A stretch of 64,000 nucleotides of DNA, taken from positions 47,915 through 111,914 of IMG/VR virus record IMGVR_UViG_3300012944_000001, one strand, 5' to 3'. Origin of the DNA: a virus. Positions within the stretch are counted from its first letter, which is position 1; each line of letters begins with the position of its first letter. Below the pieces are notes generated by a model. The model saw nothing but the letters and a program-made list of their open reading frames with translations. It was not told the DNA's origin and searched no databases. Both the position numbers and the translations under genes were made by a program. Below, in pieces: positions 6,386 to 12,709 of this stretch.

Positions 6386-6414
6386 TTGACAGAGACTAAC
6401 AACTCTGTTAGTAT
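6386..6414 (+). promoter_or_regulatory. promoter upstream of the tRNA-Asn/Y-RNA/Ro60 unit
   Basis: TTGACA-17-TAGTAT. Confidence 0.7.
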
Positions 6415-6450: not shown

Positions 6451-6522
6451 TCCTTGATAGCTCAATGGCAGAGCAGTCGACTGTTAATCGACCGGTTGTT
6501 GGTTCGAATCCAGCTCAGGGAG
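6451..6522 (+). tRNA. tRNA-Asn(GTT)
   Basis: canonical cloverleaf; loop ctgttaa. Confidence 0.93.
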
Positions 6523-6583
6523 CCTTAGCCCCTTTTCAAGCCTCTCGATGAAGCTCAAATGAGAAGGGCCAAAATTTAAATTT

Positions 6584-6705
6584 GTGACGATGCGAAGAAT
6601 AGAGTTACTTCGGTTAATTAGTGGTTCGATTCCATTCTCTGTAGTAAAACACAGATAGGCGAGTATAAAAACTCGTACATACTTTATTCAAATTTTTCTA
6701 GTCAC
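6584..6705 (+). ncRNA. Y-RNA-like copy 1
   Basis: gtgac/gtcac closing stem; GATGCG...GTTACTTC...TTTTTCTA motif; inner stem gaatagagt/actttattc; T-arm-like gtggttcgattccat. Confidence 0.75.
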
Positions 6706-6711
6706 TTAAAC

Positions 6712-6804
6712 TTGATAGAAGGTTGGGGTAGCCTGCTAGCGGCTGTAATCGGGCGAAAACGTCCCTTGTAATACTGATACGAACGTTCACATCCCTTCTA
6801 TCAA
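6712..6804 (+). ncRNA. candidate structured RNA inside the Y-RNA array (different family)
   Basis: 11-bp closing stem ttgatagaagg/ccttctatcaa. Confidence 0.45.
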
Positions 6805-6811
6805 CTAACTT

Positions 6812-6952
6812 GACAGCGATGCGCAGATAAGAGATACTTCACAGGGAACTCCGGGTCGTAGGTTCGAATCCTACTCTATCGACTCTTCGGTAGATAGCTC
6901 AGTGGTAGAGCAGGGGTATATAAAGAACTTTTATCGACTTTTTCTAGCTGTC
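6812..6952 (+). ncRNA. Y-RNA copy 2, YrlA-like with permuted tRNA domain
   Basis: gacagc/gctgtc stem; shared motif; T arm, then closed acceptor hairpin, then D arm (tagctcagtggtagagc). Confidence 0.85.
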
Positions 6953-6960
6953 TTTATTTT

Positions 6961-7053
6961 TATGACCAATGCGTAGGCACGGGGTTACTTCAAATTAATT
7001 GATAATTGACGGGCATAGCCCAGTAAACCTCAGCCGATTATTTCTAGGTCATA
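6961..7053 (+). ncRNA. Y-RNA-like copy 3
   Basis: tatgacc/ggtcata stem; AATGCG...GGTTACTTC...TATTTCTA. Confidence 0.75.
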
Positions 7054-7065
7054 TAACTTAATATT

Positions 7066-7140
7066 TCTACCCGATGCGACGCCGCCGGTTACTTCAACCC
7101 TTCGCAGAAAAAATCCGGCCGCACATTTTTCTAGGGTGGA
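7066..7140 (+). ncRNA. Y-RNA-like copy 4 (minimal)
   Basis: tctaccc/gggtgga stem; GATGCG...GGTTACTTC...TTTTTCTA. Confidence 0.75.
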
Positions 7141-7147
7141 TCATTTT

Positions 7148-7255
7148 AGTTCCGATGCGTGGATTACTGGTTACTTCAATGCTAATGAAAAGGTACGGTT
7201 CGAATCCGTTTAAGGCATGGCGCCCACACACCAGAAATCATTATTTCTAGGAACT
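7148..7255 (+). ncRNA. Y-RNA-like copy 5
   Basis: agttcc/ggaact stem; shared motif; anticodon-like hairpin ttca-atgctaa-tgaa plus T arm acggttcgaatccgt. Confidence 0.75.
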
Positions 7256-7265
7256 TATTAATCTT

Positions 7266-7305
7266 CCCCTTGGTTAGGCATAGCCTTACTTGAGGGGTTT
7301 ATTTT
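7266..7305 (+). terminator. hairpin + U tract between the Y-RNA array and Ro60
   Basis: cccct...agggg followed by tttattttt. Confidence 0.45.
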
Positions 7306-7340
7306 TATCTACTTAACGTACCACAACATAGGAGGATACA

Positions 7341-8960
7341 ATGGGTAAGTTCAATAAGGTTAACAGCACAGGCGTTCAGTCACCTATAAAGACTGTAGGA
7401 AAGATTATTAATCATGATGCTCGTGTAGCTTTTGCGCGGGATACCCAGTCTGAACTGTATTTGTTTGCAGTATCCAACTTTGTTGGTCAGGATACGTTCT
7501 ATGAGAATGCTAAGGCCAGCGATGATCGCTTTGTTATCCTTTCTCAAAAGGCCGCTGTAGCAGATCGTGCCTGGTTTGGCTACTTCGTGAGCTGGCTTCG
7601 TAACGAGGCATTCATGCGTAGTGCTGCTGTTGTGGCGGCTGTTGAGGGTGCCAAGGCATTACACGCGGCTGAGTCGTTTGTAGGGGCTGAGAATGCCTCC
7701 TGGCCCCGTCATATAGTTAGTGCTGCTCAAGCACGAGCTGATGAGCCCGGTGAAGTATTAGGATACTATGAAGCTAAGTACGGTAAGAATTTCCCGGCTT
7801 GGTTAAAGAAGGGTGTTGCGGACGGCGCAAAGCGTCTCTATAATGAGTATTCTCTTCTTAAGTACGATACAGTTTCTCACGGTTATCGTTTTTCTGATGT
7901 AATTCAGCTTACTCACCCTAAGCCTGATAATGAAATACAGGAACAACTATTTAAGTACGCGATGAATAGTCGATACAATAACACAGAGTTTGTTGGCCGA
8001 GAGAATCATCTGCCCATGATAGAGACTCGTAAGGCTATTATGGAAATGCCTGTTCGTAGTCGAAAGGCACTTATAGGTAAGGGCGGAACAGAGGTACAGA
8101 GCCTATTCAAGAATGCAGGAATGACGTGGGAAGCTCTGTCTGGCTGGCTTCAGGGTCCTATGGATGCTGCGGCTTGGGAAGCCGTTATTCCTTCTATGGG
8201 ATACATGGCGCTGCTTCGTAATCTTCGTAATTTCCAGAATGCTGGTATCCGTGCTAAGGTGCTGAAGGAAGTTCTTGGTAAGCTTGCTGATTTCGAGCAG
8301 GTTGCAAAGAGTAAGCAGTTCCCTTTCCGATTCCTTGCTGCTTACCAGGCAAATAAGGATAATCTACAGATCTCTGCCGCGCTAGAGAGTGCTTTGCAGG
8401 CTTCTTTGGCCAATGTCCCTTCCCTTAATGGGAATAGCTTGATTCTAGTTGATCGCTCTGGTAGCATGTTCCAGACTGGTGGAGGTGTCCAAGGACTCGA
8501 TCGTGCAGACACGGCTGCTATTTTCGGTACCGCTCTGGCTATGCAAGCAGAAAAGGCTGATCTTGTGCAGTACGGTTCAGCATGGTATGGTCAGGATAGT
8601 TCTTCCAAGGTAGTATCTTTCCGTAAGGGGAATTCTATTCTGCCGATGCTCAGTAAGTTTGAGAATCTTGGCGGAACAGACACCACTGGAGCTATTAAGC
8701 GACACTTGACACCGAAGCATGACCGAGTTATTCTCATCACTGATGAGCAGTACAACGGCTATGGTGTCGATCCAGGAAGCATTGTTCCTGCTAAGATTCC
8801 GATGTACACTTGGAATCTTGGAGGATATCAAGCGGCTCACAGTGAGTCTGGTTCAAAGAAGCGTCACACCTTTGGCGGATTGACTGATAAGGCATTTGTA
8901 CAGATTCCTATGATTGAGGCTGGGCAGAATGCTGTATGGCCTTGGGAGGCTAAGAAGTGA
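7341..8960 (+). CDS. rsr: Ro60/Rsr-like TROVE-domain RNA-binding protein with C-terminal vWA domain
   Basis: TFYE, R.DEPGE, MTWEALS, MGYMALLRNLRN, SKQFPFRFL motifs; vWA MIDAS LVDRSGSM, GGTD, ITDEQ. Confidence 0.93.
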   Translation: MGKFNKVNSTGVQSPIKTVGKIINHDARVAFARDTQSELYLFAVSNFVGQDTFYENAKASDDRFVILSQKAAVADRAWFGYFVSWLRNEAFMRSAAVVAAVEGAKALHAAESFVGAENASWPRHIVSAAQARADEPGEVLGYYEAKYGKNFPAWLKKGVADGAKRLYNEYSLLKYDTVSHGYRFSDVIQLTHPKPDNEIQEQLFKYAMNSRYNNTEFVGRENHLPMIETRKAIMEMPVRSRKALIGKGGTEVQSLFKNAGMTWEALSGWLQGPMDAAAWEAVIPSMGYMALLRNLRNFQNAGIRAKVLKEVLGKLADFEQVAKSKQFPFRFLAAYQANKDNLQISAALESALQASLANVPSLNGNSLILVDRSGSMFQTGGGVQGLDRADTAAIFGTALAMQAEKADLVQYGSAWYGQDSSSKVVSFRKGNSILPMLSKFENLGGTDTTGAIKRHLTPKHDRVILITDEQYNGYGVDPGSIVPAKIPMYTWNLGGYQAAHSESGSKKRHTFGGLTDKAFVQIPMIEAGQNAVWPWEAKK

Positions 8961-12076: not shown

Positions 12077-12155
12077 GGGTCTGTAAGGTTTCGTCTGAAC
12101 TTAAAGCCGCACGTCGGAAACTTTCAGCACCCCGGTTCGATTCCGGGCAGATCCA
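12077..12155 (+). ncRNA. miniature tmRNA (tRNA-like domain only)
   Basis: gggtctg/cagatcc acceptor with G3:U70 and A discriminator; stemless D loop taaggtttcg; P2 ctgaa/ttcag; 3-nt linker; T arm cccgg-ttcgatt-ccggg. Confidence 0.75.
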
Positions 12156-12159
12156 CTTT

Positions 12160-12621: not shown

Positions 12622-12709
12622 GGAAGTTCCAACCGATAGATGGCGCCGGTCGCAGTCTTGAAAACTGTTGGGTGTAATAGCCGTAGGGGTTCGACCCCCC
12701 TAGCTTCCG
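12622..12709 (+). tRNA. tRNA-Ser(TGA)
   Basis: loop cttgaaa; long variable arm; atypical D arm. Confidence 0.8.

What the first reader, a model, noticed from the sequence alone, without database searches (positions are those of the whole stretch)
6584..8960. Five covarying Y-RNA-like genes in tandem directly upstream of a phage Ro60/Rsr gene
Seen: five units at 6584-6705, 6812-6952, 6961-7053, 7066-7140 and 7148-7255. Each has the architecture closing stem - (G/A)ATGCG - inner stem - TACTTC - variable insert - inner stem' - T(T/A)TTTCTA - closing stem'. The stems differ in sequence but keep pairing (gtgac/gtcac, gacagc/gctgtc, tatgacc/ggtcata, tctaccc/gggtgga, agttcc/ggaact; inner gaatagagt/actttattc, gataagag/cttttatc, gattactgg/ccagaaatc), while the loop motifs are nearly invariant. 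The inserts differ: T arm + hairpins, a full permuted tRNA, small hairpins, almost nothing, anticodon-like loop + T arm. Known: Ro60/Rsr binds Y RNAs encoded next to it, and bacterial YrlA RNAs mimic tRNA. The conserved motif is not the classical bulged-C GGUC/GACC Ro helix. Inference: the phage encodes a modular set of Ro-tethered RNA adaptors or decoys, with one common Ro-binding module and interchangeable effector domains.
Basis: partly seen in the sequence, partly recalled or inferred. Interest (0 to 1): 0.92.

Follow-up and report, generated by a model that had tools for sequence, protein, structure and literature searches.

The report
Five Y RNAs beside phage Ro60
A phage of the Streptomyces BRock group carries five small Y RNA genes directly in front of its Ro60 gene; they are real and well supported, but Y RNAs are the expected partners of Ro60, and what is unusual is their number, since the bacterial hosts searched have one to three.

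Summary
There are five units at 6584-6705, 6812-6952, 6961-7053, 7066-7140 and 7148-7255. Each has a closing stem, C(G/A)AUGCG, an inner stem, UACUUC, a variable insert, the inner stem's partner strand, UU(U/A)UUUCUAG and the closing stem's partner strand. They lie 85-757 nt upstream of a 539-aa TROVE (Ro60/Rsr) gene.

Both stems covary, within seven related phages and in 45 independent units. A covariance model trained without this phage clade finds all five units and nothing else full-length in the window. In 121 Streptomycetaceae genomes, 68 of 76 model hits lie under 4 kb upstream of a TROVE gene on the same strand.

These are Y RNAs of the bacterial YrlA/YrlB kind (Chen et al. 2014). Unit 2 is a full tRNA-like YrlA, units 1 and 5 keep a T arm, and units 3 and 4 are plain hairpins. 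The "new" 5' motif differs by one base from the published GNCGAAN0-1G Ro site, and UUAC is the published YUAY.

The new points are modest:
- Arrays reach 4-8 units in actinophages, against 1-3 in host chromosomes.
- The 3' strand motif is conserved.
- The RNAs are missed by Rfam and partly mis-annotated as tRNAs.

The same stretch was noted twice by other first-stage readers of this genome. Function as adaptors or decoys is untested.

The parts
6386..6414 (+). Promoter-like site TTGACA-17-TAGTAT (with TG) upstream of tRNA-Asn. It is a candidate start of a tRNA-Asn plus Y RNA transcript.
   Evidence: Consensus scan only. Sites of this kind are not enriched in the region (8 found against 5.3 +/- 2.3 expected).
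6451..6524 (+). tRNA-Asn(GUU), the last tRNA before the array. In the related phages the first unit starts 2-10 nt after this tRNA.
   Evidence: ARAGORN and Rfam; same gene order.
6584..6705 (+). Y RNA unit 1 (type A): scaffold plus a T arm and two hairpins.
   Evidence: R1 78.8 bits. The independent model R2 gives 46.9 bits, E 3.8e-9. Orthologues in L002, L004, L005 and L123.
6706..6811 (+). Extra element that is not a Y unit. It is about 93 nt, closed by a perfect 11-bp inverted repeat and flanked by a direct repeat AACTTGA(T/C)AG. Function unknown.
   Evidence: Fold. Present only here and at the same place in L123. No Rfam hit, no match in the phage collection, single copy in the genome.
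6812..6952 (+). Y RNA unit 2 (type B): full YrlA-type tRNA-like domain, with a 5-bp anticodon-stem-like helix, T arm, closed acceptor-like stem of 8 bp and D arm.
   Evidence: Rfam YrlA 37.7 bits, E 1.5e-6, below gathering 69. R1 94.7 bits. R2 82.4 bits, E 6e-18. Fold. The inner 5-bp helix covaries among orthologues: ACUCC/GGGGU, ACGCC/GGCGU, ACCGA/UCGGU, ACCGC/GCGGU (rows).
6961..7053 (+). Y RNA unit 3 (type C): scaffold plus small hairpins, no tRNA-like arm.
   Evidence: R1 63.5 bits. R2 41.2 bits, E 1e-7. The closing stem changes by compensatory substitutions among orthologues: TATGACC, GTGCC, AAGCGCC, TGAATGCC.
7066..7140 (+). Y RNA unit 4 (type D): minimal unit, scaffold closed by a loop of about 24 nt (YrlB-like hairpin).
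   Evidence: R1 52.5 bits. R2 37.3 bits, E 9e-7.
7148..7255 (+). Y RNA unit 5 (type E): scaffold plus a 4-bp/7-nt-loop hairpin at the V-arm position and a T arm. Most orthologues also carry the acceptor-like stem and the D arm.
   Evidence: R1 84.2 bits. R2 43.6 bits, E 2.5e-8.
7266..7306 (+). Hairpin followed by a U-rich tract between the array and the Ro gene. It is terminator-like, and its stem covaries among the seven phages.
   Evidence: Fold and alignment by eye (CCCCUU..GAGGGG, CCCCAG..CUGGGG, CCCCUAUAU..AUAUAGGGG). The simple terminator scan did not call it.
7316..7324 (+). ACGTACCAC, conserved in 7 of 7 phages about 10 nt upstream of the Ro ribosome-binding site. Role unknown.
   Evidence: Unique in the window and conserved in position.
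7341..8960 (+). Ro60/Rsr orthologue, 539 aa, with a TROVE domain and a weak vWA match.
   Evidence: PF05731 E 1.3e-18. 59-61% identical to the 'Ro-like RNA binding protein' of Streptomyces phages BRock, Alone3, GiJojo and pSt2308. About 50% identical to Streptomyces chromosomal Rsr. Thermus phage phiLo Ro60 structures 9KOP/9L5Y match at E 4e-21.

Best explanation
The five units are genes for five different Y RNAs of the bacterial YrlA/YrlB kind, the small RNAs that bind the ring protein Ro60/Rsr encoded just downstream.

Shown: each RNA pairs its 5' and 3' ends into a closing helix. An asymmetric internal loop follows, made of C|GAUGCG on the 5' strand and UUUUUCUA|G on the 3' strand, then a second helix and an unpaired UACUUC. 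This constant scaffold is shared with RNAs that sit upstream of rsr in Streptomyces chromosomes and in other actinophages.

Inferred from homology with YrlA, YrlB and the Xenopus Ro-Y RNA complex: the 5' strand motif is the Ro60 docking site.

The inner domain differs between units but is conserved within each of the five orthologous groups across phages. It is a full tRNA-like module in unit 2, T-arm-bearing partial modules in units 1 and 5, and plain hairpins in units 3 and 4.

Inferred: the RNAs are cut out of a polycistronic tRNA/Y RNA precursor. Each one then loads on phage Ro60 and either gates its cavity or tethers it to a different partner, such as host PNPase or tRNA-handling enzymes. 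This would serve RNA quality control or repair during infection, next to the phage's own tRNA set and Rnl1-type ligase.

Inferred: the array was probably acquired with Ro from an actinobacterial host, where the layout is long-short-long, and then enlarged in the phage.
For: Position and strand: the units lie 85-757 nt upstream of the TROVE gene on the same strand.

Covariation: both helices covary.

Orthology: the same ordered array sits between tRNA-Asn and Ro in Alone3, GiJojo and pSt2308 (5 units each), BRock (4) and two IMG/VR relatives (4 each).

Specificity of model R1:
- It gives exactly 5 hits in the whole 111,914-bp genome.
- It gives 38 hits in 12 non-training IMG/VR phage Ro loci, of which 37 are full-length and all lie upstream of Ro on the + strand.
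- It gives 151 hits in 80 Streptomyces-type rsr loci, all upstream on the + strand, 1-3 per locus.

Independent model: R2, trained without this clade, finds all five units at 37-82 bits. In five whole phage genomes (692 kb) its full-length hits occur only beside Ro.

Co-occurrence in 121 Streptomycetaceae genomes: 58 of the 59 genomes with hits have TROVE, against 1 of the 55 without TROVE (Fisher p 2e-24). 68 of 76 hits lie under 4 kb upstream on the same strand.

Match to the published family:
- Unit 2 matches Rfam YrlA at E 1.5e-6, in the same score range as the chromosomal rsr-linked RNAs (34-47 bits).
- The motifs match the published YrlA features GNCGAAN0-1G and YUAY, and the published cases of two Y RNAs cut from one precursor or co-transcribed with a tRNA (PMC4201824).
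- A phage Ro60 has been shown to bind two upstream Y-like RNAs and host PNPase (PMC12135203).

Context: an Rnl1-type ligase (phrog_562, E 2.5e-78) and a metallophosphoesterase lie 5-8 kb downstream.
Against: There are no expression, end-mapping or binding data.
- Rfam YrlA stays below its gathering score (37.7 against 69), and only unit 2 is hit at all.
- The strict published motif is missed by one base.
- Single-sequence fold z-scores are modest, -0.7 to -2.3.
- A terminator-like hairpin separates the array from Ro, so co-expression is not guaranteed.
- 8 of 76 bacterial hits are not next to a TROVE gene.
- I could not anchor the models on the experimentally validated M. smegmatis RNAs. The published probe sequences were not found in the genome collection.
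- Thermus phage phiLo gave no convincing model hit.
- The co-occurrence statistic is not corrected for shared ancestry.
Confidence: 0.85

Rival explanations
1. The units are cis-acting parts of the Ro mRNA leader. On this reading they form a tandem set of Ro-binding sites that lets Ro60 regulate its own expression or stabilise its message, and are not free-standing RNAs.
For: They lie directly upstream on the same strand. A conserved ACGUACCAC and a hairpin sit between the array and the ribosome-binding site.
Against: A conserved hairpin plus U tract separates the array from the gene. In Arthrobacter phage Atuin four units lie downstream of Ro and are interleaved with tRNAs. Orphan arrays exist far from any TROVE gene. 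In M. smegmatis the homologous RNAs are processed, free, Rsr-bound species (PMC4201824).
Confidence: 0.05
2. The units are tRNA-derived relics or processing signals of the phage tRNA operon, such as RNase substrates or spacers, with no relation to Ro60.
For: They are embedded in a 28-tRNA island. Several carry T arms. Parts of unit E are annotated or called as tRNAs in relatives.
Against: Units 3 and 4 have no tRNA-like part yet keep the full scaffold. The scaffold covaries. Full-length hits occur only beside Ro in whole phage genomes rich in tRNAs. They also occur beside rsr in bacterial chromosomes where no tRNA cluster was seen in the loci inspected. No tRNA finder calls any of the five units in this window.
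Confidence: 0.04
3. The RNAs act mainly as tRNA-shaped decoys that soak up host tRNA-cutting defence nucleases or tRNA-modifying enzymes. In this view Ro60 serves only to protect them.
For: Units 1, 2 and 5 have tRNA-like modules. A 7-nt anticodon-like loop with U at position 2 recurs in 6 of 7 unit-E orthologues (rows). The neighbourhood holds tRNAs and an Rnl1-type repair ligase.
Against: The 'anticodon' is not conserved among orthologues (GCU, GGA, GAU, GUU), and the hairpin sits where YrlA has its V arm. Units 3 and 4 have nothing tRNA-like. Host chromosomes carry the same kind of RNAs, which argues against a purely anti-defence origin.
Confidence: 0.06

Closest known systems
Mycobacterium smegmatis YrlA and YrlB (Chen et al. 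2014, PMC4201824)
   Same: Both are actinobacterial and encoded in tandem just upstream of rsr on the same strand, cut from one precursor. They share a 5' Ro-site motif of the CGA(A/U)G type and YUAY at the start of the inner domain. One RNA has a T arm, a closed acceptor-like stem of 7-8 bp and a D arm. The other has at most a T arm.
   Different: There are five RNAs here instead of two. The motif is CGAUGCG rather than GNCGAAN0-1G. The 3' strand UUUUUCUAG is strongly conserved here, whereas in M. smegmatis only the 5' strand is recognisable. [quoted passage not shown]
Salmonella Typhimurium YrlA/YrlB and Rfam family RF02553
   Same: The tRNA-like module of unit 2 aligns over the whole 114-position model, covering the T arm, acceptor-like stem and D arm.
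   Different: The score is 37.7 bits against a gathering score of 69. The Rfam model does not cover the outer scaffold. There is no RtcR/RtcB operon here. The Salmonella RNAs are sigma-54/RtcR controlled.
Thermus phage phiLo Yrl1/Yrl2 with phiRo60 (PMC12135203)
   Same: A phage-encoded Ro60 has Y-like RNAs directly upstream. The protein is the only solved structure matched by the window's Ro (E 4e-21). Binding to phage Ro60 and complex formation with host PNPase are shown there.
   Different: There are two RNAs, recognised by a CGAA motif. My models give no convincing hit in the phiLo locus, so the RNAs are too diverged to align.
Deinococcus radiodurans Yrn1/Yrn2 and vertebrate Y1/Y3/Y4/Y5
   Same: Several paralogous Y RNAs share a Ro-binding stem and differ in the loop. 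In Deinococcus they are co-transcribed with a tRNA. The general model is that the constant stem binds Ro and the variable part recruits partners such as PNPase.
   Different: Those RNAs keep the bulged-C helix with both strands (GGUCCGA/UUGACC). Here the C is base-paired in 32 of 32 units, and no hit to the Rfam Y_RNA family was seen.

Membership tests
Bacterial Y RNA, YrlA/YrlB class (Chen et al. 2014) | Encoded within 4 kb of a Ro60/Rsr orthologue, on the same strand | tested here: met
   The units end 85-757 nt upstream of the TROVE ORF 7341-8960, all on the + strand.
Bacterial Y RNA, YrlA/YrlB class (Chen et al. 2014) | 5' motif GNCGAAN0-1G (proposed Rsr contact) | tested here: inconclusive
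   The window has NNC(G/A)AUGCG, with U in place of the second A, so the strict pattern fails by one base. In model-guided alignments the same columns read CGAAG(U/C)G in L133 and Atuin (exact match) and CGGUGCG in Streptomyces chromosomes.
Bacterial Y RNA, YrlA/YrlB class (Chen et al. 2014) | 5' and 3' ends pair into a long stem interrupted by an internal loop | tested here: met
   Closing and inner helices appear in all five folds. 80-88% of cells pair, with strong covariation against shuffled and slid controls.
Bacterial Y RNA, YrlA/YrlB class (Chen et al. 2014) | At least one RNA per genome with a tRNA-like domain (T arm, closed acceptor-like stem, D arm) | tested here: met
   Unit 2 aligns to all of Rfam YrlA, E 1.5e-6, and folds accordingly. 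Units 1 and 5 have a T arm only, and units 3 and 4 have none, as described for YrlB-type RNAs.
Bacterial Y RNA, YrlA/YrlB class (Chen et al. 2014) | Conserved YUAY at the start of the inner (V) region | tested here: met
   UUAC in units 1, 3, 4 and 5, and AUAC in unit 2. UACUUC is invariant in 32 of 32 clade units and nearly so in 45 independent ones.
Bacterial Y RNA, YrlA/YrlB class (Chen et al. 2014) | Bound by, and dependent for accumulation on, Rsr/Ro60 | not testable with these tools
   This needs a pull-down, EMSA or northern blot. Co-occurrence with TROVE (58 of 59 genomes with hits) is only indirect support.
Rfam RF02553 (YrlA) | Score at or above the curated gathering threshold (69 bits) | tested here: not met
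   Unit 2 scores 37.7 bits and the other units get no hit. The rsr-linked RNAs of Streptomyces, Nonomuraea and Gordonia phage VanLee also reach only 34-47 bits, so the threshold excludes the whole actinobacterial branch.
Metazoan/Deinococcus-type Y RNA (Rfam Y_RNA) | Bulged-C Ro helix with both strands conserved (GGUCCGA / UUGACC) | tested here: not met
   No Y_RNA hit at E up to 10. The C before the motif pairs with G in 32 of 32 units, and the pair covaries in the wider family.
tRNA | Cloverleaf with open acceptor end and anticodon arm, as recognised by tRNA finders | tested here: not met
   ARAGORN and Rfam tRNA and 27 tRNAs in the window, and none within 6584-7255.

The most novel reading that the evidence does not exclude
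Actinophages have enlarged the host's one-to-three-member Y RNA set into ordered arrays of four to eight. The members have been kept as distinct orthologous groups while Ro diverged to 60% identity. On this reading each member re-aims the single phage Ro60 (with host PNPase or another nuclease) at a different RNA class, or baits a different host tRNA-directed defence. The constant UACUUC loop would be a second docking site common to all members. That would make the array a programmable RNA-adaptor set used in phage-host conflict, not just a copy of the host system.
Probability: 0.2. Interest if true: 0.75.

Novelty: new member of a known kind. Interest (0 to 1): 0.45.

Why it matters
What the variable halves of Y RNAs do is still largely open, even in bacteria. 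Phages of this clade that are already in culture (BRock, Alone3, GiJojo, LuckySocke on Streptomyces lividans and relatives) offer five conserved, separable Y RNAs beside one Ro60 in a small genome. Single-unit deletions and Ro pull-downs could therefore ask directly whether different Y RNAs give Ro60 different partners.

There are practical gains too. The two covariance models built here find actinobacterial and actinophage Y RNAs that Rfam's YrlA threshold misses. Several 'tRNA' annotations in GenBank phage records look like parts of Y RNAs.

Tried and rejected
- Exact-pattern scan CGATGCG-N6-16-TTACTTC over IMG/VR. It returned only scattered single chance matches and was useless. Fetching Ro loci by protein replaced it.
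- Near and distant DNA searches of the phage collection with the locus and with the extra element found nothing.
- Anchoring on the validated M. smegmatis YrlA. Two published probe sequences gave no exact match in the genome collection, and taxon names are hidden for genomes reached through loci, so this anchor failed.
- Rfam at gathering level found no YrlA in any phage or Streptomyces locus. Only the E-value mode shows the sub-threshold hits.
- The idea that orphan arrays go with an RNHCP-domain gene held in one genome of five and was dropped. The ORF next to the other orphan array is unrelated to Ro.
- The idea that the 6706-6811 element is a multiplying MITE was dropped, because the genome has a single copy.
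- The idea that GAUGCG pairs with the strand after the T arm to make a true tRNA acceptor stem in unit E. This works in three phages but not in pSt2308 or the window, so it was rejected as a general feature (rows).
- A recurrent abiF-like motif was not found. There is only one sub-threshold hit in 14 kb.
Full report
**Where the window comes from.** The window is bases 47915-111914 of a complete 111,914-bp IMG/VR virus record with direct terminal repeats. Its Ro protein is 59-61% identical to the 'Ro-like RNA binding protein' of Streptomyces phages BRock, Alone3, LuckySocke, GiJojo and pSt2308. It is about 50% identical to chromosomal Rsr of many Streptomyces species. The region from 1.8 to 13.6 kb is a tRNA island with 28 tRNA genes, all on the + strand. 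The Ro gene sits in the middle of it. An Rnl1-type RNA ligase (phrog_562, E 2.5e-78), a metallophosphoesterase and a nucleotide pyrophosphohydrolase follow, and then the terminase.

- ATGCG-N8-14-TACTTC occurs five times in 64 kb, only in these units and only on the + strand, against 0.21 expected.
- Each unit folds on its own into closing helix, internal loop, inner helix and variable centre.
- ORF 7341-8960 is a TROVE protein (PF05731, E 1.3e-18). Its only solved relative by sequence is the Ro60 of Thermus phage phiLo.

**Relatives carry the same array.** The same ordered array lies between tRNA-Asn and Ro in Alone3, GiJojo and pSt2308 (five units each), in BRock (four; type A is missing) and in two IMG/VR relatives (four each). 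The units fall into five orthologous groups, A to E.

I aligned 32 units (A1). C8, UGCG, UACUUC and UU.CUAG are invariant. The two helices pair in 80.1% of cells, against 55.5 +/- 1.6 after shuffling (0/500 reach it) and 35-49% when partners are slid. 15 of 16 pairs show changes on both sides. One closing-helix pair, for example, reads AU 10, GC 9, CG 7 and UA 6, with no mispair.

**Covariance models and linkage to TROVE.** Model R1 was built from A1.
- It finds exactly the five units in the whole phage genome and nothing else.
- In 12 IMG/VR Ro loci outside the training set it gives 38 hits. 37 are full-length, and every one lies upstream of Ro on the + strand, one to eight per locus.
- In 80 Streptomyces-type chromosomal rsr loci it gives 151 hits, all upstream on the + strand, one to three per locus. 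The typical layout is long-short-long.
- Arthrobacter phage Atuin has one unit upstream and four downstream of Ro, interleaved with tRNAs.

I aligned 45 units that were not in the R1 training set (A2). They pair in 88.3% of cells against 59.2% shuffled, with a covariation score of 0.737 against 0.205. This alignment was fitted to the model, so it leans towards the structure.

Model R2 was built from A2 only, so it contains no sequence of this phage clade. It recovers all five window units at 82.4, 46.9, 43.6, 41.2 and 37.3 bits (E 6e-18 to 9e-7). Nothing else in the window scores better than E 0.047. Over five whole phage genomes (692 kb, many tRNAs) its full-length hits are confined to the Ro neighbourhood. 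The only other hit is a partial match across two adjacent tRNAs.

In 121 Streptomycetaceae genomes, 59 have R1 hits and 66 have TROVE. 58 have both, 1 has hits only, 8 have TROVE only and 54 have neither (Fisher p 2e-24, not corrected for ancestry). 68 of 76 hits lie under 4 kb upstream of the TROVE match on the same strand. The eight unlinked hits are small orphan arrays, seven of them in genomes that do have a TROVE gene elsewhere.

**What the units are.** They are Y RNAs of the bacterial YrlA/YrlB kind. Chen et al. 2014 (PMC4201824) reported the following:
- YrlA-like RNAs within 4 kb of Ro60 on the same strand in 254 bacteria and 22 phages.
- A 5' motif GNCGAAN0-1G proposed as the Rsr contact.
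- A conserved YUAY at the start of the V region.
- A tRNA-like module of T arm, closed acceptor-like stem and D arm.
- Second Y RNAs (YrlB, Yrn2) that are simpler hairpins or carry only a T arm.
- Processing of YrlA and YrlB from one precursor in M. smegmatis.
- Co-transcription with a tRNA in Deinococcus.

The family-wide consensus from A2 is: closing helix, G-(G/A)-(U/A)-G-(C/U)-G, (C/A)A, inner helix, UACUUC, inner domain, inner helix partner strand, (U/C)CUC, closing helix partner strand. The window's C|GAUGCG is thus one base away from the published motif. L133 and Atuin match the published motif exactly, and Streptomyces chromosomes read CGGUGCG. UUAC is the YUAY.

Unit 2 aligns to the whole Rfam YrlA model (37.7 bits, E 1.5e-6). 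It is below the gathering score of 69, but the chromosomal rsr-linked RNAs of Streptomyces and Nonomuraea and those of Gordonia phage VanLee score only 34-47 bits too. The Rfam threshold therefore excludes this whole branch.

No metazoan-type Y_RNA hit exists.

**The variable parts.**
- Unit 2 has a covarying 5-bp anticodon-stem-like helix, a T arm, an 8-bp closed acceptor-like stem and a canonical D arm.
- In most relatives unit E is a second full YrlA-type RNA. In the window and in L123 it has kept only a small hairpin and the T arm. That hairpin has 4 bp and a 7-nt loop with U at loop position 2 in 6 of 7 orthologues. Its 'anticodon' is not conserved, and it sits where YrlA has its V arm.
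- Units 3 and 4 have no tRNA-like part.

**Likely mechanism.** The steps below are marked as shown or inferred.
- Shown: a constant covarying scaffold and tight genomic coupling to Ro60.
- Inferred from homologues: the 5' strand motif docks on Ro60.
- Inferred: the RNAs are cut from a tRNA-Asn/Y RNA precursor. In relatives the first unit starts 2-10 nt after the tRNA, units are 5-20 nt apart with A/U-rich spacers, and a promoter-like site lies at 6386-6414.
- Inferred: a covarying hairpin plus U tract at 7266-7306 ends the RNA unit before the Ro gene.
- Inferred: the different inner domains give the Ro60 particle different partners. For a phage Ro60, binding to two upstream Y-like RNAs and complex formation with host PNPase have been shown in vitro (PMC12135203).

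**Novelty.** Phage Y RNAs beside Ro, several Y RNAs per locus and the modular view of Y RNAs are all published. I found no paper describing arrays of this size or these Streptomyces-phage RNAs, but the supplementary tables of Chen et al. are not held.

The additions are:
- arrays of four to eight in actinophages against one to three in host chromosomes;
- five orthologous groups conserved across the clade;
- a strongly conserved 3' strand motif;
- two working covariance models;
- the finding that some annotated phage 'tRNAs' are pieces of unit E.

I file this as a new member of a known kind, of moderate interest.

Noticed in passing
window 6706-6811 (and L123 about 1870-1965): A 93-nt element closed by a perfect 11-bp inverted repeat (TTGATAGAAGG/CCTTCTATCAA) and flanked by a direct repeat AACTTGA(T/C)AG is inserted between Y units 1 and 2. 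It occurs only here and at the same spot in one IMG/VR relative (about 75% identical). The genome has a single copy, and there is no Rfam hit and no match in the phage collection. It folds as a long stem with three hairpins. Its nature is unknown.
   Followed up: partly
window 6532-6569: A hairpin between tRNA-Asn and unit 1 matches the Rfam abiF RNA motif just below threshold (32.6 bits, gathering 37). It is the only such hit in the first 14 kb and is absent from the relatives, where the first unit abuts the tRNA.
   Followed up: partly
L002 2774-2847, L004 2769-2843, L122 2282-2352: The GenBank features tRNA-Ser(gct) of phage Alone3 and tRNA-Arg(cct) of GiJojo, and an ARAGORN tRNA-Asn call in an IMG/VR relative, all lie inside Y RNA unit E. 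They span from the Ro-site motif to the T arm and are probably false tRNAs.
   Followed up: partly
window 6810-6838 and the same place in six relatives: The 5' end of unit 2 reads TTGACA-17 nt-GATACT in all seven phages. Its closing stem is almost invariant among phages, unlike the other units. Either an internal promoter overlaps the RNA gene or the resemblance is accidental.
   Followed up: no
window 7316-7324: ACGTACCAC is unique in the 64 kb window and conserved in 7 of 7 phages about 10 nt upstream of the Ro ribosome-binding site. It could be a regulatory site of the Ro message.
   Followed up: partly
L228 1501-1854, L229 1417-1644 (two Streptomycetaceae chromosomes): A second, orphan array of two or three Y-like units lies megabases away from the single TROVE gene. 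8 of 76 hits in 121 genomes are of this kind. The neighbouring genes differ between genomes: an RNHCP-domain gene in one, none recognisable in the other.
   Followed up: partly
window 12077-12158 and 12622-12708: There is a short tmRNA-like match (43.8 bits, gathering 47) and a tRNA-Sec-like match (30.6 bits, gathering 47) inside the tRNA island. Neither was called by ARAGORN.
   Followed up: no
L003 5079-5242, L002 4967-5199: Sub-threshold manA RNA motif matches (49.7 and 47.8 bits, gathering 55.2) lie between the two tRNA-Lys genes of BRock and Alone3. The window has no spacer there.
   Followed up: no
L224 (Streptomyces phage Kela) 1229-1649: In Kela three Y-like units precede an annotated RNA ligase gene that directly abuts the Ro gene, so Ro, Y RNAs and an RNA ligase are physically linked there.
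   Followed up: no
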